Below are positions 1 to 63,042 of a stretch of 64,000 nt of DNA, one piece after another (within the stretch, counting starts at the first letter, position 1; each line of letters opens with the position of its first letter). Position numbers and translations under genes: made by a program. Below the pieces are notes generated by a model, which saw only the letters and a program-made list of their open reading frames with translations, was not told the DNA's origin and ran no database searches. Source of the DNA: Escherichia coli (GTDB lineage: Bacteria; Pseudomonadota; Gammaproteobacteria; Enterobacterales; Enterobacteriaceae); the NCBI RefSeq assembly GCF_001677475.2, contig NZ_CP015229.1; one strand, given 5' to 3'.

Positions 1-2506
1 TTTCCCATGCGTGAGCACCGGTGGCATAAGGCTTCACCACACCGTCAATACAGGTAGCCAGCCACAGGGAAACAGATTCCTCAGCCAGACGTGTCGACAG
101 CTTTTCCGGAAGGTAATCGTTGATATTGGCGGCATAGCCAGGCTTGAAGTTCAGGACAAACTTTTTAGCCATTGCACGATCGCAGTAATATTTGCCCACT
201 TGCTCCTGCTCGCTGCGGGCAAATCCTTCCGGCATTACCACGTCCTCACCGTAGACTGATTCAATAAGAAGGCGGGCTGCGTGTGGCATTTGAATAGCGC
301 CTTGCTCACGCAGTACACGCTGCGTCAGCCAGATTCGTCCATGATCGGGATAGACATATGCACTGTTACGCATGGCACTGCCGAACCATTCGTCACCAGG
401 AGCGTCGTCCCAGACGGGGGCCAGAATCAGCAATTCAGGAGGGGAACGCTCGTCTTTTCCGTCACGCTTTAACTGACCATTAATATCGCGGATATGCCGC
501 TGTAATCGCCCCGCCCGTTGGATCAGCAAATCAACAGAGGCCAGGTCGGAGATCATTTCGTCCAGGTCAATATCCACACTTTGTTCAATTACTTGCGTAC
601 AAACAATGACTTGCGATAATCTCTGTAAACTACAACTTTTACCAAAGCGTGCCAACGTTTCCGTTTCAATTCGCTGGCGATCGCTAAAAGCAAAGCGGCT
701 ATGAAAAAGAGAAAGGCTGGAAGCAGGAATGACGCCGCGGGCAAGTAACTGACGATAAACTTTAATAGCATCATCGACAGAATTCCGGATCCAGGCGATG
801 CATTTCCCCTGACTTACCGCCGATTCGATACGCGCAATACACTCTTGTTCGCTATGAAGCCAACCCACGCTCACGCTACGCTCAACGTCTTTGCGCGTCG
901 CTACCCGGTGTGAATGCACATCGGATTTCGTAACGTGCGTCAGCCAGGGGTAATCATCCTTTTCCAGGAACGGAGCTTCTTGCTGGCCCTCTGTACCACG
1001 CGCAAAGGCAGCAACGAGTTTGTCGCGCTGCTGTTGAGATAACGTGGCAGAAAGCAAAATGACGCTGTTTCCGCCACGCGCCTGCAGCTCGATCAGCCCT
1101 TCAAGAATGCATGACATGTAAGCGTCACAGGCATGGATCTCATCAGCCAGCAGGATTTTGTTACTCAGTCCCAGAAGCCGCAGATTATTATGTTTGAACG
1201 GCATCACAGCCATCATCGCCTGATCCAGCGTGCCGACGCCAATTTCAGCCAGCAACGCCTTCTTGTTACTGTCAGCAAACCAGGCCGCACATCCCTGGCT
1301 GAAAGCTTGTTCATCCGGTTCTTCTGACCCGACTAAATCACCGGACCAGAGTGATTCATTAAAGCGGTCCATTAATGTGCGGGCACTGTGTGCCAGCACC
1401 AGGCTGGGGCGGGATTGTGGCGAATAGAAAGCAAGCCAGGTTTTGACCAGCCGATCGTACATGGCATTGGCCGTTGCCATTGTTGGCAGGCCAAAAAACA
1501 AACCCTGCGCTTTCCCCGCAGCCATCAACCTGTGCGCCAGGATAAGCGCCGCTTCTGTTTTACCTGCGCCGGTTACATCCTCCAGAATAAATAACTGTGG
1601 TCCCGGCTGGCTGATATCCAGATCCAGCACCTTTTGCTGTAGCGGTGTCGGATTCTCAATAAAAGGAAACAGCGTATTAATTCCGGTGAAAGGCGCGGTT
1701 TCTGCTTTTGGAGGAAAGACGGTTAAGGCGTTTTGAGCCTGAACTAAAGTTTTCTGCCAGTAATCTTCAATATCCATTGTCTGTGCGACGCGTGGAAAAA
1801 ATCGCGTTGACGATCCCGTCCAGTCTGCAAGTACGACGGTTGCAGAGATATACCAGGAAAGTTGTTTTATAAGTTCAACGCCCTCGTCATCATCCCAGAA
1901 TGTGGGGATCTCTATGAGCGGAAACAGTGCCTTGATTGCAAGGAGAAAATCTCGTGCGGCAGCTTTGTCTTCAGGCAGAAAGTTGTCCAGTTCATCCATA
2001 CGGTCAGGAGGCCGACCATGATGCCCGGTAGTTATGGGCATCCACATATCTATTACCCGTTTGAGCTTGCGCGGAGAGAGTGAAGATGCAGGAAGCAATT
2101 CTTCGCATTCACTTAAATAATGGTGCCACAACCAGTAACCCAGCGTTGAATGAGAGATTTTTTCGTAATTTTTTCTAGAGCTTTCCGGAACCTTGAGTTG
2201 CGGGTGCAGGTAAAGTTGCTGAAAAGAGCGGGCAAATTTTCCAGTATCGTGCCAGCACAATAGCCAGGCGAAAAATTGTGCTGCCTGCTCCGTATCAGCG
2301 AAACCTAGTTGACGAAAATAGTCAGCCAGCCCGAAGCAATTGCTTTTAACCATTAAATAGCCCATCGCGGCTACATCCAGCGAATGCCAGCAAAGAAGGT
2401 GATAGTCGTCGCCCCCGTCTTTCTCGCCGCGTCGGGTTTTTCCCCAGAAATCAAAAAAAGTCACAATATTTTTATCCTTCAGTAAACTTAAAGGATATTT
2501 ACGCAT
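1..2506 (-). CDS. cas3: Cas3 (HD nuclease + SF2 helicase), CRISPR-associated; C-terminus lies outside the window
   Basis: Minus-strand frame is open from the ATG at 2504-2506 to the window edge (about 835 codons, no stop seen; absent from the ORF track because its stop is off-window). Translation begins MRKYPLSLLKDKNIVTFFDFWGKT and contains HD-domain motifs (LLCWHSLDVAAMG, WHDTGKF), Walker A (EDVTGAGKTEAALILA) and a DExH box (LLADEIHACD). Start codon uncertain (in-frame GTG at 2462-2464 is an alternative). Confidence 0.8.
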   Translation of the reverse strand, partial: MRKYPLSLLKDKNIVTFFDFWGKTRRGEKDGGDDYHLLCWHSLDVAAMGYLMVKSNCFGLADYFRQLGFADTEQAAQFFAWLLCWHDTGKFARSFQQLYLHPQLKVPESSRKNYEKISHSTLGYWLWHHYLSECEELLPASSLSPRKLKRVIDMWMPITTGHHGRPPDRMDELDNFLPEDKAAARDFLLAIKALFPLIEIPTFWDDDEGVELIKQLSWYISATVVLADWTGSSTRFFPRVAQTMDIEDYWQKTLVQAQNALTVFPPKAETAPFTGINTLFPFIENPTPLQQKVLDLDISQPGPQLFILEDVTGAGKTEAALILAHRLMAAGKAQGLFFGLPTMATANAMYDRLVKTWLAFYSPQSRPSLVLAHSARTLMDRFNESLWSGDLVGSEEPDEQAFSQGCAAWFADSNKKALLAEIGVGTLDQAMMAVMPFKHNNLRLLGLSNKILLADEIHACDAYMSCILEGLIELQARGGNSVILLSATLSQQQRDKLVAAFARGTEGQQEAPFLEKDDYPWLTHVTKSDVHSHRVATRKDVERSVSVGWLHSEQECIARIESAVSQGKCIAWIRNSVDDAIKVYRQLLARGVIPASSLSLFHSRFAFSDRQRIETETLARFGKSCSLQRLSQVIVCTQVIEQSVDIDLDEMISDLASVDLLIQRAGRLQRHIRDINGQLKRDGKDERSPPELLILAPVWDDAPGDEWFGSAMRNSAYVYPDHGRIWLTQRVLREQGAIQMPHAARLLIESVYGEDVVMPEGFARSEQEQVGKYYCDRAMAKKFVLNFKPGYAANINDYLPEKLSTRLAEESVSLWLATCIDGVVKPYATGAHAWE

Positions 2507-2640
2507 ATATTAAAAATTATCTGTGATATATATCGTTCAATAAAATATTTACATTATGAATAATCAAATAATTTTCATCCGTAATATATATGAATAATAA
2601 ACATAGGCATAATATTCACATAAACAATATAAATTAAAAA
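2507..2640 (-). promoter_or_regulatory. AT-rich tract immediately upstream of cas3; probable cas3 promoter region
   Basis: About 130 bp of roughly 80% A+T directly 5' of the cas3 start; position fits a promoter. H-NS-type silencing of E. coli cas promoters is established knowledge; no -35/-10 assigned. Confidence 0.35.
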
Positions 2641-3117
2641 AGGGTGCAGGAGACCAAACCATCACAATTCAGTACGCGGGGTTTTATCCCCGCGTGGTGG
2701 CTACTTCTTCGATTCGTAAGCGAAAACTGCCTTAAACTCCATACCACGTTCTCTGATACTCAACTCACACAACGAGTCGCCTACCATCAGCGTGAATCAT
2801 CGTACTGTACAACACAGTACGATGATTGCCACAAGGGCATATTTTGTCAGCATGTCTTGCCTCCCTGCAAAGAAGAGACTAACATTCGAATTGTTTGGGT
2901 TCGAACGTAAGCCTCAGGTTGATAGAAATATCGCCTGGGGCTTTTGTCCATCTGGAACCTCGCGAATGCTTAACGCCAGACAGCCTCAAGCACCCGACGC
3001 CATTCTATACCTGATAATTCTTCCAGCGGCGTTCACGTTTAAAATCAGGAATGCTGCTCGCAAAATAAAAACGCCCCCATCATTTCTGACAGAGGCGTTT
3101 AATTTATCCGGCAATAT

Positions 3118-3852
3118 CTACCCTTCGTGTAACCCACATTCCCTTTTTAAGCCAAAGAAACGAGTTTCTTCTTCCGCCATGCCGGGTTCCCATTTACGGG
3201 TTGTATGGGTATCGCCCACCGATAAATATCCTTCGTCCCATAATGGGTGATATTTCAGGCCATGTTTTTGCAGATACTGATATATCGTTCGGTTATCCCA
3301 GTCGATAATCGGCAGCACTTTAAATACGCCACGCTGAATTGCCAGCACCGGTAAATTGGCGCGACTGCCGGATTGTTCGCGGCGCAGGCCAGCAAACCAC
3401 GTTTGCGCATTCAGTTCTTTCAGCGCCCGGTTCATCGGTTCGACTTTGTTGATGTCATTGTACTTTTCAATGCCTTCAACGCCCTGCTCCCATAGTTTTC
3501 CGTAACGTGCTTCCTGCCAGGCGGCGCTTTCGGTAGCGCGGTACACTTTCAGGTTGAGCTTGAGTTTGTCCGTTAACTCGTCAATAAAGCGGTAGGTTTC
3601 CGGGAACAAGTAACCCGTATCGGTGAGGATCACTGGAATATCCGGGCGAATCTGATTCACCAGATGCAGGCTCACCGCCGCCTGAATGCCGAAACTGGAA
3701 GAAAGTACATATTCACCGGGCAGATTATCCAGCGCCCAGGCAACGCGGCCTTCAGCGTCCAGTTTTTCCAGTTCGGCGTTAGTTTCTGCCAGCGCCAGAA
3801 TGCGATCTACCTTCGGCAGTTCGTTCAGGGCGTTTAGATCGAGTTTGGACAT
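3118..3852 (-). CDS. cysH: phosphoadenosine phosphosulfate (PAPS) reductase
   Basis: 244-aa frame [15 protein letters not shown]...KRECGLHEG; recognised as CysH. ORF-track entry 3118..4005 extends to an upstream in-frame start that I do not use. Confidence 0.93.
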
Positions 3853-3925: not shown

Positions 3926-5638
3926 TTAATCCCACAAATCGCGCGCCGGATCGAGCACCGGGCGAATGATGCCCGCACGCACCGTAAAGTCGCCGAAGCC
4001 TTCACCCGCTTCGCGCTCTTTCGCCCAGCGCCCTATCAGTTCATCAAGCGACGCCAGGATTTCCGGTTCGGTGATGTTTTCTTTATACATCCGTGGGATA
4101 CGTGTCCCAATGCGGTTGCCGCCAAGATGCAGGTTGTAGCGACCCGGCGCTTTACCCACCAGGCCCACTTCCGCCAGCATCGCGCGACCACAACCGTTCG
4201 GGCAGCCTGTTACACGCATCACGATATGCTCATCGCTGACACCATGTTTCGCCATTAAATTATCGATGTTGTCGATAAAAGACGGCAGGAAACGCTCCGC
4301 TTCCGCCATCGCCAGCGGGCAAGTCGGGAATGACACGCAGGCCATTGAGTTTTCACGCTGCGGCGTGACGGCATTCATTAACCCGCTCTCTTTAGCGATC
4401 TTCTCGATCTTTGCTTTCTCACTTTCCGGCACACCGGCGATGATCAGATTCTGGTTCGCCGTAATGCGGAAATCACCTTTGTGGATCTTCGCGATCTCCA
4501 GCAGGCCGGTTTTCAGCGGACGCCCAGGATAATCAAGGATGCGACCATTTTCGATAAACAGCGTCAGGTGCCAGTTATCATCAATGCCTTTAACCCAGCC
4601 AATACGATCGCCACGTCCGGTAAATTCATACGGGCGGATAGGTTCGAACTTGACCCCCGCACGACGTTCCACTTCCGCTTTAAACGTCTCAATACCCACG
4701 CGCTCCAGCGTGTATTTGGTTTTGGCATTTTTACGATCGGTTCGATTACCCCAGTCACGCTGAGTCGTCACGACGGCTTCCGCCACCGCCAGCGTATGCT
4801 CCAGCGGCAGATAGCCAAACTCGCTCGCGGTGCGGGCGTAGGTTTTTTTGTTACCGTGTTCGATGGAAAGCCCACCGCCCACCAGCAGGTTAAAGCCCAC
4901 CAGCTTGCCGTTTTCGGCGATCGCCACGAAGTTCATGTCGTTGGCGTGCAGATCGATATCGTTCTGCGGCGGGATCACTACCGTGGTTTTGAATTTACGC
5001 GGCAAATAAGTCTGACCGAGGATCGGTTCTTCATCGGTGGTGGCGACTTTTTCCTGATCGAGCCAGATCTCCGCATACGCGCGGGTACGCGGCAGCAGAT
5101 GTTCAGATATTTTCTTCGCCCATTCATAAGCTTCCGCGTGCAGCTGCGACTCGTAAGGGTTCGAGGTGCAGAGTACGTTACGGTTCATGTCGTTAGCAGT
5201 CGCCAGCGCATCAAGACCGACCGAGTGCAGCATCTGGTGCACCGGTTTGACGTTCTTTTTCAGAATGCCGTGGAACTGAAACGTCTGGCGGTTGGTCAGG
5301 CGAATGCTGCCATAGATGGTGTTTTCACCGGCAAATTTGTCTATCGCCTGCCACTGTTTGGTGGTGATCACGCCACCCGGCAGACGGCAGCGCAACAGCA
5401 TCGCGTGGCGCGGCGCCAGCTTCTGTTCAGCACGTTCGGCGCGGATGTCGCGGTCATCCTGCTGATACATGCCGTGGAAGCGGATCAGCAGGAAGTTGTC
5501 GCCCTTAAAGCCGCCGGTCAGACCGTCGTTTAAATCTTCCGCAATGGTGCCGCGCAGGTAGTTGCTTTCAAGCTTCATGCGCTCGGCGTCTGTCAGTTTT
5601 CCTTCGACCACTAAAGGCCCTGGATGTTTTTCGCTCAT
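3926..5638 (-). CDS. cysI: sulfite reductase (NADPH) hemoprotein beta subunit
   Basis: 570-aa ORF; recognised CysI sequence with the C-terminal Cys cluster (TGCPNGCGR). Confidence 0.95.
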
Positions 5639-17440: not shown

Positions 17441-18919
17441 ATGTCGAAAAAATACATCATAGGGATTGATGGCGGAAGTCAGAGCACAAAAGTGGTGATG
17501 TATGATCTGGAAGGTAATGTGGTTTGCGAAGGCAAAGGCTTATTGCAGCCGATGCACACGCCAGATGCCGATACCGCAGAACATCCTGACGACGATTTAT
17601 GGGCATCATTATGTTTTGCCGGTCACGATTTGATGAGTCAGTTTGCCGGGAATAAAGAAGATATTGTCGGTATTGGTCTGGGATCCATCCGTTGCTGCCG
17701 TGCGTTATTGAAAGCCGATGGCACGCCAGCTGCGCCGTTGATTAGCTGGCAGGATGCACGCGTTACACGCCCTTACGAACATACGAATCCTGACGTGGCA
17801 TATGTCACCTCTTTTTCAGGTTATCTGACGCATCGCTTAACCGGCGAGTTTAAAGACAATATCGCCAACTATTTTGGTCAGTGGCCGGTGGATTATAAGA
17901 CCTGGGCATGGAGCGAAGATGCCGCGGTAATGGAAAAGTTTAATATCCCCCGCCAGATGCTTTTTGACGTGCAAATGCCGGGCACCGTTCTTGGGCATAT
18001 CACACCTCAAGCCGCGCTGGCGACGCATTTCCCGGCAGGACTGCCGGTTGTTTGTACCACCAGTGATAAACCGGTAGAAGCTCTGGGAGCTGGGTTACTG
18101 GATGATGAAACGGCGGTGATTTCTCTTGGCACCTACATCGCGCTGATGATGAACGGTAAAGCACTGCCGAAAGATCCAGTAGCGTACTGGCCGATTATGT
18201 CTTCTATTCCGCAAACATTGCTGTATGAAGGTTACGGTATCCGCAAAGGCATGTGGACAGTAAGCTGGCTGCGCGACATGTTAGGCGAGTCGTTAATTCA
18301 GGATGCCAAAGCACAGGATCTTTCACCGGAAGATTTGCTCAACAAAAAAGCTTCTTATGTGCCGCCTGGCTGTAATGGTCTGATGACGGTGCTGGACTGG
18401 CTGACCAATCCGTGGGAACCGTACAAACGCGGGATTATGATCGGCTTTGATTCCAGCATGGATTACGCATGGATATATCGTTCGATACTGGAAAGCGTGG
18501 CGCTGACGCTGAAGAACAATTACGACAATATGTGTAATGAAATGAATCACTTTGCAAAGCATGTGATCATTACTGGCGGCGGTTCGAACAGCGATCTGTT
18601 TATGCAGATTTTTGCCGACGTGTTCAACCTTCCGGCACGCCGTAACGCCATTAATGGTTGTGCAAGCCTGGGGGCAGCGATTAATACGGCGGTAGGTCTG
18701 GGGCTATACCCGGATTACGCAACGGCTGTCGACAAAATGGTTCGCGTGAAAGATATCTTTATGCCTGTTGAGAGCAACGCCAAACGCTACGACGCGATGA
18801 ATAAAGGCATTTTCAAAGACCTAACCAAACACACTGATGTGATCCTGAAAAAATCGTATGAAGTGATGCATGGTGAGCTGGGAAATGCGGATTCTATCCA
18901 GAGCTGGTCGAATGCGTGA
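17441..18919 (+). CDS. ygcE: FGGY-family carbohydrate kinase
   Basis: 492-aa ORF MSKKYIIGIDGGSQSTKVVMYD... (FGGY N-terminal motif). Confidence 0.9.
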   Translation: MSKKYIIGIDGGSQSTKVVMYDLEGNVVCEGKGLLQPMHTPDADTAEHPDDDLWASLCFAGHDLMSQFAGNKEDIVGIGLGSIRCCRALLKADGTPAAPLISWQDARVTRPYEHTNPDVAYVTSFSGYLTHRLTGEFKDNIANYFGQWPVDYKTWAWSEDAAVMEKFNIPRQMLFDVQMPGTVLGHITPQAALATHFPAGLPVVCTTSDKPVEALGAGLLDDETAVISLGTYIALMMNGKALPKDPVAYWPIMSSIPQTLLYEGYGIRKGMWTVSWLRDMLGESLIQDAKAQDLSPEDLLNKKASYVPPGCNGLMTVLDWLTNPWEPYKRGIMIGFDSSMDYAWIYRSILESVALTLKNNYDNMCNEMNHFAKHVIITGGGSNSDLFMQIFADVFNLPARRNAINGCASLGAAINTAVGLGLYPDYATAVDKMVRVKDIFMPVESNAKRYDAMNKGIFKDLTKHTDVILKKSYEVMHGELGNADSIQSWSNA

Positions 18920-18965
18920 ATGAGGTAGGCCGGGCGGAAAACTGCCCGGCCTGAACATACCTAAA

Positions 18966-19786
18966 TGGTTATCCCCGCTAACGCGGGGAACTCACTGAAA
19001 ACACCGGCGAGATCGTATTTTTTGCCGGTTTATCCCCGCTCGCGCGGGGAACTCTACCGGAAGGCAGGCACATTAGATCAGGTGATCGGTTTATCCCCGC
19101 TCGCGCGGGGAACTCCAGTGAGCGGAAGAAGAATGACTAACAGAGAGCGGTTTATCCCCGCTCGCGCGGGGAACTCCCCAGCCACAACAGCCACGCGTCG
19201 CGCTGTTCCGGTTTATCCCCGCTCGCGCGGGGAACTCGGAAACCGCCCCGGCGGTGGTTGGCTGTTTGCCGGTTTATCCCCGCTCGCGCGGGGAACTCTT
19301 TGCGCCGGAAATAGGAATCGTATTCGGTCTCGGTTTATCCCCGCTCGCGCGGGGAACTCTTATGCATCTCATCAAGCTTGTCGCCAAACGACGGTTTATC
19401 CCCGCTCGCGCGGGGAACTCTTAAATCGCGCTGGAAAAAAATGGTTTTTGCGCGGTTTATCCCCGCTCGCGCGGGGAACTCACACCCCGTTGCAATAAAT
19501 GGTCTGGGGGCTGCGGTTTATCCCCGCTCGCGCGGGGAACTCCAAACGCTTCTTCGTAGGCAGCACTGTAGGCCCGGTTTATCCCCGCTCGCGCGGGGAA
19601 CTCGGTGAAAAGATGAGTGCATACTGGTTTGTTTTCGGTTTATCCCCGCTCGCGCGGGGAACTCTCTTTTCCCGCTAATCACGACCAGATCCTGTCCGGT
19701 TTATCCCCGCTCGCGCGGGGAACTCGTAAAACCTCCTCGCGCCCACAATCGCAGCGGCGGTTTATCCCCGCTCGCGCGGGGAACTC
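18966..19786 (-). CRISPR. CRISPR array, 14 repeats (29 nt) and 13 spacers (32 nt each); orphan array between ygcE and queE
   Basis: Thirteen identical repeats CGGTTTATCCCCGCTCGCGCGGGGAACTC (plus-strand reading) at 19026, 19087, 19148, 19209, 19270, 19331, 19392, 19453, 19514, 19575, 19636, 19697 and 19758, plus one degenerate terminal repeat TGGTTATCCCCGCTAACGCGGGGAACTC at 18966-18993. AT-rich leader lies at the high-coordinate end, so the array is read on the minus strand. Confidence 0.97.
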
Positions 19787-19990
19787 TCTAAACATAACCT
19801 ATTATTAATTAATGATTTTTTAAGCCAGTCACAATCTACCAACTTTACAGGATCACACAAACAACACATCTATTATGTTAAAGAGCACTTAATCCATTGA
19901 TTGAAAAGGTAAATATTTAAAATAACTCTATACAAACTAAAATCTACCAAACTCCGACGTAATAATTTTCACCCCAGAGAAAAATTAACG
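19787..19990 (-). promoter_or_regulatory. CRISPR leader (AT-rich) containing the presumed array promoter
   Basis: About 200 bp of AT-rich sequence abutting the first perfect repeat, opposite the degenerate repeat; position and composition typical of a type I-E leader. Confidence 0.55.
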
Positions 19991-33175: not shown

Positions 33176-33250
33176 TGGACGTCTTGTCGAGTAGCAATCG
33201 GCTTTTTATGACGCTGGTTTCAGATTGGTGACAAAGTGCCTGTGTTTATG

Positions 33251-33285
33251 CCGGATGCGGCGTTAACGCCTTATCCGGCCTACAA
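33251..33285. repeat. REP element downstream of barA
   Basis: GCCGGATGCGGCGTTAACGCCTTATCCGGCCTACA palindrome. Confidence 0.7.
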
Positions 33286-39473: not shown

Positions 39474-39518
39474 AAAGCAACCTCAATAAGAAAAACTGCC
39501 GCGAAGGATAGCAGGAAT

Positions 39519-39884
39519 AAAAAAAGGGAGCACTGTATTCACAGTGCTCCCGGTTCGTTTCGCAGCATTCCAGCTACTTTTGTTGCTCCCTGCTCATCCT
39601 TGACAACTTTTCCTCTGGCCTTGCGGCCAATCGTTCGTCCTGAACTATTGCTTCCTGCTCACACCACCCCGATGTGATACTTCATCCTGAAGTGTCCCTG
39701 GCCTTCCTGACCCACCGAATCATCCTGACCGGTTCTCATTCTCCATCCTGGAGGTGTCCTTTAACGCGTCCTGCGTCATCCTCTTCGCTTCGTCCAGAAG
39801 CCTTTCCCTGAAACACCATCCTGGTGTGTCCTTCAGAAGTGTCATCATCCTGATGTTCACTTCGTTGTCTGACTCCCTGTCGAC
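39519..39884 (-). ncRNA. csrB: CsrB regulatory sRNA (CsrA-sequestering)
   Basis: Minus-strand transcript begins GUCGACAGGGAGUCAGACAACGAAG (complement of 39860-39884), carries many GGA-containing CAGGAUG / AGGGA motifs (plus-strand CATCCTG / TCCCTG), and ends in a hairpin GGGAGCACTG...CAGTGCTCCC (39526-39551) plus U-run. Confidence 0.9.
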
Positions 39885-47175: not shown

Positions 47176-47205
47176 GCCGGATACGGCGCAAACGTCGTAT
47201 CCGGC
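47176..47205. repeat. REP element between xni and fucO
   Basis: GCCGGATACGGCGCAAACGTCGTATCCGGC palindrome. Confidence 0.7.
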
Positions 47206-52718: not shown

Positions 52719-52826
52719 TACATTACTCCCTGATGTGATGCCCGGTCGCTCCGGCTATCGGGCCTGAACAAGCAAGAGTGGTTAGCCGGATAAGCAATGT
52801 TATCCGGCTATATTGCAGGAGCGATT

Positions 52827-58053: not shown

Positions 58054-58259
58054 ACTTCCTGAGCCGGAACGAAAAGTTTTATCGGAATGCGTGTTCTGGT
58101 GAACTTTTGGCTTACGGTTGTGATGTTGTGTTGTTGTGTTTGCAATTGGTCTGCGATTCAGACCATGGTAGCAAAGCTACCTTTTTTCACTTCCTGTACA
58201 TTTACCCTGTCTGTCCATAGTGATTAATGTAGCACCGCCTAATTGCGGTGCTTTTTTTT
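58054..58259 (+). ncRNA. gcvB: GcvB regulatory sRNA
   Basis: Begins ACTTCCTGAGCCGGAACGAAAAGTTTTATCGG 7 nt after a TATAGT -10 (58042-58047), contains the G/U-rich region GTTGTGATGTTGTGTTGTTGTGTTTGC, ends with hairpin CACCGC-CTAATT-GCGGTG plus T8; divergent from gcvA as in E. coli. Confidence 0.92.
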
Positions 58260-61223: not shown

Positions 61224-61403
61224 GAGGTTATCCCTCACCCTAAACGCATAAATGCCTGATGCGCTACGCTTATCAGGCCTACATAACTCCTGCAATATTT
61301 TGGATTTGCATGAGTTGTAGGCCGGATAAGGCGTTCACGCCGCATCCGGCATGAACCACGCGCACTTAGTCAATAATCAGGATGAGAGGTTATCCCTCAC
61401 CCT
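61224..61403. repeat. BIME (two REP palindromes) flanked by perfect 18-bp direct repeats
   Basis: Direct repeats GAGGTTATCCCTCACCCT at 61224-61241 and 61386-61403; between them REP GCCTGATGCGCTACGCTTATCAGGCCTACA (61254-61283) and REP TAGGCCGGATAAGGCGTTCACGCCGCATCCGGC (61318-61350). Confidence 0.75.
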
Positions 61404-62744: not shown

Positions 62745-62821
<77 letters not shown>

Positions 62822-62854
62822 ATTAAAATTTGATGAAGTAAAGCAGTACGGTGA

Positions 62855-62931
<77 letters not shown>

Positions 62932-62965
62932 ATCAAAATTTGATGAAGTAAAAGCAGTACGGTGA

Positions 62966-63042
<77 letters not shown>

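What the first reader, a model, noticed from the sequence alone, without database searches (positions are those of the whole stretch)
18921..18952. GC-rich hairpin between the ygcE stop and the distal end of the CRISPR array
Seen in sequence: AGGCCGGGC-GGAAAACT-GCCCGGCCT (9-bp stem) lies 14 nt before the degenerate terminal repeat. It may insulate convergent transcription of ygcE (+) and the pre-crRNA (-), or mark the 3' end of the array transcript.
Basis: seen in the sequence. Interest (0 to 1): 0.2.

Follow-up and report, generated by a model that had tools for sequence, protein, structure and literature searches.

The report
Ancestral gene-end hairpin beside CRISPR array
The GC-rich hairpin is real, but it is the ordinary stem-loop that follows the ygcE gene in many enteric bacteria; it is older than the CRISPR array now beside it, and it lacks the U-tract of a classical terminator.

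Summary
The hairpin exists as described: AGGCCGGGC-GGAAAACT-GCCCGGCCT at 18927-18952. It starts 7 nt after the ygcE stop and ends 12 nt before the degenerate terminal repeat of a 14-repeat type I-E CRISPR-II array transcribed on the minus strand.

It is much more stable than shuffled sequence on both strands (z about -5). It is single-copy in the window and in 4,534 of 5,426 complete E. coli genomes.

It is not a CRISPR feature. In Citrobacter, Klebsiella, Enterobacter, Raoultella, Cedecea, Mixta and others, ygcE converges directly on queE with 35-53 nt between the stops. The alignable hairpin (GCCGGG..CCCGGC core) fills that gap. Eight of 11 pairs show compensatory change, and 89% of cells pair against 30-47% in slid controls. 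In Escherichia the array and leader sit between this hairpin and queE.

Neither strand has a U-tract, so it is not a canonical intrinsic terminator. It best fits the known U-less 3' stem-loops of convergent junctions, which act as pause or collision sites and exonuclease barriers.

Published K-12 3'-end maps show no end at it on either strand, but ygcE may simply be too weakly expressed there to show one. Within Escherichia the outer stem is decaying.

This is an ordinary new member of a known kind, of low interest.

The parts
17441..18919 (+). ygcE (FGGY-family carbohydrate kinase) CDS, stop TGA at 18917-18919
   Evidence: ORF list; Pfam FGGY_N and FGGY_C; RefSeq annotation of the matching E. 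coli regions
18920..18926 (+). 7-nt spacer (ATGAGGT) between the stop codon and the stem
   Evidence: Read from the sequence. In orthologous loci the hairpin starts 0-15 nt after the stop, or later where REP elements fill the gap.
18927..18952 (.). The hairpin: arms 18927-18935 and 18944-18952, loop 18936-18943. It is 11 bp with an AAAA loop as plus-strand RNA and 9 bp with an 8-nt loop as minus-strand RNA.
   Evidence: covariation across 24 Enterobacteriaceae sequences; single copy per genome
18953..18964 (.). 12-nt trailer (GAACATACCTAA) between the hairpin and the terminal repeat. It is not T-rich, so the plus strand has no U-tract.
   Evidence: It is conserved next to the terminal repeat across Escherichia, including E. 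whittamii, which has a single repeat.
18965..18993 (-). Degenerate terminal (leader-distal) CRISPR repeat
   Evidence: First member of repeat family D1; same sequence context in K-12 CRISPR2.2
18965..19786 (-). Type I-E CRISPR-II array of the fused 'CRISPR2.2-3' form: 14 repeats, 13 spacers, 61-nt period
   Evidence: RefSeq CRISPR annotations on matching genomes; nomenclature from PMC3903273
19787..20125 (-). AT-rich CRISPR-II leader and queE 3' region, containing a boxA-like GCTCTTTAACAT at 19875-19886 on the minus strand
   Evidence: A functional boxA lies upstream of the queE-adjacent Salmonella CRISPR-II array (PMC7665894).
20126..20797 (-). queE (ygcF), the ancestral convergent partner of ygcE
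18847..18926 (-). C-rich, G-poor stretch (27 C, 10 G in 80 nt) immediately downstream of the hairpin on the minus strand, antisense to the ygcE 3' end. Its composition is rut-like.
   Evidence: top 0.3% of 80-nt windows on that strand. The excess rests on a few synonymous differences from other genera, so it is weak evidence.

Best explanation
The hairpin is the 3'-end stem-loop of the ygcE transcription unit. It is inherited from the ancestral arrangement in which ygcE and queE converge with only about 35-53 nt between their stop codons and this hairpin between them. In Escherichia the CRISPR-II array, its leader and a new queE terminator came to lie between the hairpin and queE. This left the hairpin at the trailer end of the array and removed the T-richer sequence that follows it in many other genera. 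Without a U-tract it cannot act as a classical intrinsic terminator. Its most likely present action (inferred, not shown) has two parts. First, it is a strong RNA hairpin that pauses RNA polymerase arriving from either side and fixes where convergent polymerases meet. Second, it blocks 3'-to-5' exonucleases, which sets and stabilises the 3' end of ygcE mRNA. On the other strand it would do the same for any array read-through transcript, with Rho acting on the C-rich untranslated antisense RNA just beyond it. Shown: its existence, its stability on both strands, its single-copy status, its positional and structural conservation with compensatory changes, and its origin before the array. Inferred: pausing, the collision role, the exonuclease barrier and Rho involvement.
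For: The hairpin is much more stable than shuffled sequence on both strands. It lies 7 nt after the ygcE stop. In 13 checked species from other genera, queE is convergent and 35-53 nt from the ygcE stop, and a 9-12 bp GC-rich hairpin of -15 to -25 kcal/mol occupies the gap. An unforced MAFFT alignment of 24 sequences gives 89.4% paired cells against 30-47% when partners are slid. Eight of 11 pairs have compensatory changes. The covariation score is 0.349 against 0.179 in shuffles (0 of 500 reach it). RNAalifold recovers the same helix. An E. coli-labelled genome without the array (SCPM-O-B-8794) keeps the hairpin through two fully compensated pair changes. E. coli strains in which the region after ygcE is replaced carry a different hairpin at the same place. 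In several other genera the hairpin is followed by T-rich tails on the ygcE strand, and two species have textbook A-tract/hairpin/T-tract bidirectional terminators. Known classes match this anatomy. [quoted passage not shown] REP hairpins act as combined terminators and stabilisers. The minus strand has a C>G stretch right after the hairpin.
Against: No 3' end is reported at the K-12 hairpin (NC_000913.3 2903382-2903407) on either strand, in three growth conditions of Term-seq or in the TRS re-analyses. No Rho-termination region is listed there either. Within Escherichia the outer stem carries uncompensated mismatches. The O157:H7-type variant occurs in 759 of about 4,530 genomes. O157:H16, B1.H1.1, E69, E. 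albertii and MOD1-EC7003 also have mismatches. E. whittamii has a 4-nt deletion, and one strain has IS3 inserted in the loop. This suggests relaxed constraint. The plus strand has no C>G region downstream. In K-12 a plus-strand 3' end lies inside the array at 2904041, so some plus-strand transcription exists beyond the hairpin; its origin is unknown.
Confidence: 0.6

Rival explanations
1. Non-functional relic. The hairpin is what remains of the ancestral ygcE/queE terminator. It lost its tail and its job when the array was inserted, and it persists in Escherichia only because too little time has passed for it to decay.
For: The T-rich tail seen in other genera has been lost. Uncompensated stem mismatches are frequent in E. 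coli (17% O157:H7-type). There are two mismatches in MOD1-EC7003 (-9 kcal/mol), a 4-nt deletion in E. whittamii and an IS3 insertion in one strain. K-12 shows no mapped 3' end.
Against: A core of 6-8 G/C-rich pairs survives in every Escherichia lineage sampled. Two pairs changed in a compensated way in SCPM-O-B-8794. Strains that lost this hairpin have another one at the same position. 57% of the E. coli genomes that carry it have the intact K-12 form.
Confidence: 0.2
2. Dedicated pre-crRNA terminator. The hairpin exists to end the CRISPR-II array transcript and protect its 3' end.
For: It lies 12 nt past the last repeat on the transcribed strand. It forms a -20 kcal/mol hairpin on the minus strand. 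It is followed by a C-rich, G-poor stretch. The leader has a boxA-like element, which would make array transcription Rho-resistant and so in need of a defined stop. G-to-A variants in O157:H7, O157:H16 and E. albertii break the plus-strand stem but give G.U pairs on the minus strand.
Against: The alignable hairpin is present in genera with no array at this locus and in an E. coli-labelled genome lacking the array. The minus strand has no U-tract (ACCUCAUUCA). The CRISPR-I/iap junction has no equivalent separate hairpin. In K-12, minus-strand 3' ends fall within the array, not at the hairpin. The G.U versus A.C strand-asymmetry tally shows no strand preference (about 4 versus 5-7 events).
Confidence: 0.1
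3. A REP-type (repetitive extragenic palindromic) element or a derivative of one.
For: It shares the GCCGG...CCGGC clamp with the canonical REPs in the window (33250-33279, 61321-61350). In this window it is preceded by GTAG. Several other genera have true REP/BIME units in the same intergenic gap, and the simple hairpins of other genera resemble their own REP arms (GCCGGGTGG, GCCGGATGG). REPs play the same 3'UTR role.
Against: It is single-copy in the window at up to 3 mismatches. It occurs once per genome in E. coli (median 1, maximum 2). It is 26 nt and a perfect palindrome, rather than the roughly 35-nt imperfect REP. GTAG is absent in K-12 (GAAG).
Confidence: 0.07
4. A canonical Rho-independent (intrinsic) terminator of ygcE or of the array.
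For: It has a strong GC-rich stem with a short loop immediately after a stop codon.
Against: The tails are GAACATACCT (plus strand) and ACCTCATTCA (minus strand). The terminator scan, which requires at least 5 T in 8 nt, does not call it on either strand. No Term-seq 3' end is seen in K-12.
Confidence: 0.03

Closest known systems
[quoted passage not shown]
   Same: An energetically stable stem-loop just after a gene, not followed by a U-rich tract. On the minus strand a C-rich, G-poor stretch follows directly, where rut sites were localised in that study.
   Different: No steady-state 3' end or bicyclomycin-sensitive region has been reported at this site in K-12. The plus strand lacks a C>G region downstream.
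Bidirectional terminators between convergent genes (Ju et al. 2019, as described in Wang et al., bioRxiv 10.1101/2022.10.23.513370)
   Same: It lies between convergent transcription units, encodes a hairpin on both strands, does not look like an intrinsic terminator, and sits ancestrally in a 35-53 nt gap between two convergent stop codons.
   Different: In this window the convergent partner is a normally silenced CRISPR array rather than a protein gene. No overlapping 3' ends from the two strands have been observed. I could not consult the Ju et al. list.
REP elements as 3'UTR terminator/stabilisers (Harris et al., bioRxiv 10.64898/2026.03.23.713779)
   Same: A GC-rich extragenic palindrome with a GCCGG/CCGGC clamp, located in a 3'UTR and between convergent genes.
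   Different: It is single-copy, shorter, perfectly palindromic, and has no conserved GTAG head.
Canonical intrinsic terminators
   Same: A GC-rich stem of 9-11 bp with a short loop directly after a stop codon. Orthologues in two species (L016, L019) are textbook bidirectional intrinsic terminators.
   Different: There is no U-tract on either strand in Escherichia.

Membership tests
Canonical intrinsic (Rho-independent) terminator | Stable GC-rich stem-loop | tested here: met
   -23.2 kcal/mol (plus) and -20.7 kcal/mol (minus), z about -5
Canonical intrinsic (Rho-independent) terminator | U-rich tract immediately 3' of the stem | tested here: not met
   Tails are GAACATACCT (plus) and ACCTCATTCA (minus). 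The terminator scan does not call it.
Canonical intrinsic (Rho-independent) terminator | Transcript 3' ends at the site in vivo | tested here: inconclusive
   No 3' end at K-12 2903382-2903407 in the Term-seq or TRS tables. ygcE expression in those conditions was not checked, and the K-12 locus architecture differs from this window.
U-less protective stem-loop of Rho-dependent transcripts | Stable stem-loop not followed by U-rich sequence, at a gene end | tested here: met
   class defined in PMC6061677
U-less protective stem-loop of Rho-dependent transcripts | rut-like C-rich, G-poor RNA immediately downstream | tested here: inconclusive
   Minus strand: 27 C and 10 G in 80 nt, top 0.3% of windows. 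Plus strand: C/G ratio about 1.1. The minus-strand bias rests on a few synonymous sites.
U-less protective stem-loop of Rho-dependent transcripts | Bicyclomycin-sensitive read-through; 3' end trimmed by PNPase or RNase II to the stem base | not testable with these tools
   No Rho region is listed near the site in PMC7815308 supplementary file 2. This needs an experiment in an expressing strain.
Bidirectional terminator of convergent genes | Located between convergent transcription units, with a hairpin encoded on both strands | tested here: met
   ygcE (+) against the array (-) here; ygcE against queE in other genera
Bidirectional terminator of convergent genes | Overlapping 3' ends of both convergent transcripts at the element | tested here: inconclusive
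   None reported in the K-12 datasets. The SEnd-seq paper is not held.
REP / BIME element | Dispersed multi-copy family | tested here: not met
   One copy in the window at up to 3 mismatches. One per genome in 4,534 E. coli genomes.
REP / BIME element | Imperfect palindrome of about 35 nt with a conserved GTAG head and a GCCGGAT-type arm | tested here: not met
   It is a 26-nt perfect palindrome. GTAG is present here but is GAAG in K-12. The arm is GCCGGGCGG, against GCCGGATG/GCCGGATA in the window's REPs.
CRISPR repeat (degenerate extra copy) | Similarity to the 29-nt repeat and the 61-nt register | tested here: not met
   It is not included in repeat family D1. The register ends at 18965.
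Any Rfam RNA family | Score at or above the gathering threshold | tested here: not met
   No hit at the gathering threshold. The best sub-threshold hit is anti-hemB at 20.5 bits against a threshold of 49.5.

The most novel reading that the evidence does not exclude
The ancestral ygcE/queE convergent-gene hairpin has been co-opted as the functional boundary of the CRISPR-II array. Array transcription is made Rho-resistant by the leader boxA-like element, so the hairpin would be the place where array polymerases and ygcE polymerases pause and collide. That would set the pre-crRNA 3' end. It would also stop ygcE read-through from producing RNA antisense to the crRNAs, and stop array read-through from silencing ygcE.
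Probability: 0.15. Interest if true: 0.35.

Novelty: new member of a known kind. Interest (0 to 1): 0.12.

Why it matters
It matters little beyond correct annotation. The result shows that the conserved flank at the trailer end of the E. coli CRISPR-II locus is not part of the CRISPR system. It is the old 3' hairpin of ygcE, which fixes where the array lies relative to the ancestral ygcE-queE junction. It also adds a well-supported example, with cross-genus covariation, of a U-less stem-loop at a convergent junction. If the boundary function were demonstrated, it would give a simple natural case of how an untranslated, antiterminated array transcript is kept from interfering with a neighbouring convergent gene.

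Tried and rejected
- **Rfam:** searches at the gathering and E-value thresholds found nothing meaningful over the hairpin.
- **Terminator and promoter scan:** it does not call the hairpin as a terminator. A minus-strand promoter-like match at 18920-18891 is within chance expectation (6 found, 5.3 expected).
- **Minus-strand ORF:** the 45-aa ORF at 18821-18958 that overlaps the hairpin has no Pfam match and is treated as spurious.
- **Literature:** the first search for 'ygcE' was swamped by journal DOIs. The SEnd-seq paper (PMC6814526) is not held. The supplements of Dar and Sorek are not held.
- **REP annotation in K-12:** the RefSeq NC_000913.3 copy lists no REP features even where REP-like sequences exist. 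The lack of a REP annotation at the hairpin therefore says nothing.
- **Strand-asymmetry test:** I counted G.U pairs (which work only on the plus strand) against A.C pairs (which become G.U on the minus strand). This gave about 4 versus 5-7 events and does not identify the selected strand.
- **Minus-strand C-rich stretch:** I considered whether it was selected in Escherichia. It stems from a handful of synonymous T/C differences, so I rate it weak.
- **Resemblance to a repeat 3' end:** the stem plus GAACAT loosely resembles GGGGAACAT. I noted this but did not pursue it, because the Citrobacter orthologue lacks it.

Full report
**1. Observation**

The window reads ...GCG TGA ATGAGGT AGGCCGGGC GGAAAACT GCCCGGCCT GAACATACCTAA ATGGTTATCCCCGCTAACGCGGGGAACTC....

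- The perfect 9-bp inverted repeat occupies 18927-18952.
- The ygcE stop codon is at 18917-18919. The ORF is 17441-18919, has FGGY_N and FGGY_C domains, and aligns to genes annotated ygcE in more than 5,300 complete E. coli genomes.
- From 18965 to 19786 there are 14 repeats of 29 nt at a 61-nt period. The AT-rich leader is on the right, so the pre-crRNA is made from the minus strand, and the degenerate copy at 18965-18993 is the leader-distal repeat.
Two small corrections apply. The stated start 18921 includes 6 unpaired bases. The gap to the terminal repeat is 12 nt in the repeat register, not 14.
- As RNA it is very stable on both strands. The plus strand forms 11 bp around an AAAA loop (-23.2 kcal/mol, z -5.06). 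The minus strand forms 9 bp with an 8-nt loop (-20.7 kcal/mol, z -4.67). No shuffle reaches either value.
- Perfect stems of this size are enriched in the window (13 against 1.8 +/- 1.4 in simulations). This is the most GC-rich of them.

**2. It is not a repeated element or a known RNA family**

- It occurs once in the window even with 3 mismatches allowed.
- It occurs once per genome in 4,534 of 5,426 complete E. coli genomes, always on the chromosome next to ygcE.
- No Rfam family reaches its threshold over it.
- It shares the GCCGG...CCGGC clamp with the canonical REPs elsewhere in the window (33250-33279, 61321-61350). However, it is shorter, perfectly palindromic and single-copy, and the GTAG preceding it here is GAAG in K-12.

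**3. Locus context in Escherichia**

- K-12 has the same stem with loop GGGAAACT, followed by the decayed CRISPR2.2 repeats, about 0.5 kb of AT-rich DNA, CRISPR2.3, the leader and queE.
- The window has the fused 'CRISPR2.2-3' form described by Almendros et al. (PMC3903273).
- E. whittamii has the hairpin (with a 4-nt deletion), one repeat, and then the leader.
- In E. coli strains such as E22, homology to the window stops exactly at the first base of the stem. A different hairpin (TGCCGGG...TCCCGGCA) follows the ygcE stop, ahead of an inserted sugar-kinase and porin cluster.

**4. The decisive comparison**

A scan of species-representative genomes with the YgcE protein returned orthologous loci from about 30 Enterobacterales species.

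- In every non-Escherichia genome checked, queE is convergent with ygcE and its stop lies only 35-53 nt from the ygcE stop. QueE identity is 80-96%. This holds for Citrobacter, Klebsiella, Raoultella, Enterobacter, Entomohabitans, Mixta, a Pluralibacter MAG and two unclassified Enterobacteriaceae.
- That gap is filled by one GC-rich hairpin of 9-12 bp and -15 to -25 kcal/mol, or in some species by REP/BIME units.
- The sequences align without any structural guidance. The alignment shows a shared GCCGG[G/A]...[C/T]CCGGC core and variable inner pairs.
- On that alignment, 89.4% of cells form standard pairs, against 30-47% when partners are slid by 1-3 columns. Eight of 11 pairs show changes on both sides. 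The covariation score is 0.349 against 0.179 +/- 0.019 in shuffles, with 0 of 500 reaching it.
- RNAalifold predicts the same helix on its own.
- The Citrobacter sp. Cu233 hairpin (GCCGGGCGGAAAATGTCCACCCGGC) shares 13 consecutive bases with the window's.
- An E. coli-labelled representative without the array (SCPM-O-B-8794, 138 nt between the stops) has AGAGCGGGCGG-GAAA-CCGCCCGCTCT. That is two fully compensated pair changes plus G.U to G-C.

I conclude that the hairpin is the ancestral stem-loop of the ygcE/queE convergent junction. In Escherichia the CRISPR-II array and leader lie between it and queE. It belongs to ygcE, not to the array. In agreement, the other I-E array of K-12 (CRISPR-I, convergent with iap) has no separate hairpin. 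There the degenerate terminal repeat begins about 25 nt after the iap stop.

**5. What kind of element it is**

- The tails are GAACATACCT on the plus strand and ACCTCATTCA on the minus strand. The terminator scan does not call the site. It therefore fails a defining feature of intrinsic terminators.
- In several other genera the orthologous hairpin has a moderately T-rich tail on the ygcE strand (TTTGCTCA, TTTCCCTT, TCTTTT). Two species have textbook A-tract/stem/T-tract bidirectional terminators.
- The Escherichia form thus looks like a terminator that lost its tail to the sequence now occupied by the array trailer.
- The anatomy that remains is a stable U-less stem-loop between convergent units. 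It matches two described E. coli classes:
  - bidirectional terminators of convergent genes, which 'do not resemble intrinsic terminators' nor depend on Rho, and whose hairpin acts as a pause that positions polymerase collisions (bioRxiv 10.1101/2022.10.23.513370).
- REPs have recently been assigned the same dual role of terminator and stabiliser.
- On the minus strand, the 80 nt after the hairpin (antisense to the ygcE 3' end) hold 27 C and 10 G. This is in the top 0.3% of windows and is rut-like. The excess over other genera comes from only a few synonymous sites.
- The plus strand has no such bias.

**6. Direct evidence on 3' ends**

The K-12 hairpin is at NC_000913.3 2903382-2903407.

- The curated Term-seq table of Adams et al. 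(LB at OD 0.4 and 2.0, and M63 glucose) has no 3' end on either strand between 2900556 and 2904041, and lists no Rho-termination region there (PMC7815308).
- The TRS tables list minus-strand ends at 2904072, 2904196, 2904255 and 2904318, at repeat edges inside CRISPR2.3. They place the queE primary end at 2904682. Nothing is listed at the hairpin (PMC10687069).
It is a weak negative for two reasons. I did not check ygcE expression in those conditions. The K-12 array is also separated from the hairpin by about 650 nt, unlike in this window.

**7. Constraint within Escherichia**

- The intact K-12-type 36-mer is found in 2,568 genomes.
- The O157:H7 type, with an A.C mismatch at the third pair, is found in 759 genomes.
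- Other lineages carry single uncompensated changes. E. albertii and MOD1-EC7003 carry two each. E. whittamii has a deletion. Strain PSS-15 has IS3 inserted in the loop with a 3-bp AAC duplication.
- A core of 6-8 GC-rich pairs always remains.
- Several G-to-A changes break the plus-strand RNA stem but give G.U on the minus strand. The conserved G.U pair works only on the plus strand.
- Counted over the whole alignment, the tally is about 4 versus 5-7 events. It does not show which strand's RNA is under selection.

**8. Verdict**

A boundary role between convergent transcription units fits the element's ancestry and known biology. It is not an array-specific terminator, not a canonical terminator, and has no mapped 3' end so far.
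- The best explanation is an inherited ygcE 3' stem-loop acting as a pause or collision site and exonuclease barrier, on either strand (confidence about 0.6).
- The main rival is a decaying relic with no present function (about 0.2).
- It is an ordinary new instance of a known kind, of low interest.

Noticed in passing
window 19875-19886 (minus strand): A boxA-like sequence, GCTCTTTAACAT (one mismatch to GCTCTTTAACAA), lies in the CRISPR-II leader region between queE and the first repeat. By count alone it is not significant (0.42 expected per window). However, it sits where Stringer et al. showed a functional boxA upstream of the queE-adjacent Salmonella CRISPR-II array.
   Followed up: partly
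window 18965-19786: The array is the fused 'CRISPR2.2-3' form, with 14 repeats and 13 spacers running from the 2.3-type leader to the 2.2-type terminal repeat. K-12 instead has two arrays 0.5 kb apart. All full repeats carry CTCGCG in the loop region where K-12 has CTGGCG.
   Followed up: partly
L089 (E. coli PSS-15, NZ_AP027709.1) 1930-3205: An IS3 copy is inserted exactly in the hairpin loop with a 3-bp AAC target duplication, splitting the two arms by about 1.26 kb. In that strain ygcE is an N-terminally truncated pseudogene.
   Followed up: yes
L002 (E. coli E22) 3021-3200: In a subset of E. coli, homology to the window ends at the first base of the stem. A different hairpin (TGCCGGG-11 nt-TCCCGGCA) follows the ygcE stop, ahead of an aminoimidazole riboside kinase gene and a carbohydrate porin gene.
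   Followed up: partly
window 18847-18926 (minus strand): The 80 nt immediately downstream of the hairpin on the minus strand hold 27 C and 10 G, in the top 0.3% of windows on that strand. This is a rut-like composition antisense to the ygcE 3' end. It is more pronounced in Escherichia than in other genera, through a few synonymous changes.
   Followed up: partly
K-12 NC_000913.3 2904041-2904326 (CRISPR2.3; corresponds to L001 3687-3972): Published 3'-end maps show minus-strand ends at the edges of CRISPR repeats. They also show one plus-strand end (2904041) just past the terminal repeat of CRISPR2.3. This implies exonuclease or pausing stops at repeat hairpins, and some transcription antisense to the array in wild-type K-12.
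   Followed up: no
L092 (K-12 iap/CRISPR-I junction) 1317-1375: At CRISPR-I there is no separate hairpin between the convergent iap stop and the array. The degenerate terminal repeat GGAGTTCTACCGCAGAGGCGGGGGAACTCC begins about 25 nt after the iap stop and can itself form an extended hairpin.
   Followed up: partly
L004 (Escherichia whittamii) 4477-4600: This species has a CRISPR-II locus reduced to a single repeat with no spacer, directly followed by the leader. The ygcE hairpin there carries a 4-nt deletion, leaving about 6 bp.
   Followed up: no
window 2838-2995, 39516-39875, 58054-58259, 61275-61317, 62745-63042: Rfam and ARAGORN identify a sok antitoxin RNA, CsrB, GcvB, the ES036 sRNA and three tandem tRNA-Met(CAT) genes. 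Together with the BLAST matches, this is consistent with an E. coli-like chromosome segment running from the cys/CRISPR region to the tandem tRNA-Met genes (metZWV in K-12, from memory).
   Followed up: no
window 33250-33279, 61321-61350, 47176-47205, 52785-52808: These are canonical REP and REP-like palindromes with the GCCGGAT...ATCCGGC clamp. The pattern GCCGGR...YCCGGC occurs 11 times against 0.63 expected by chance.
   Followed up: no
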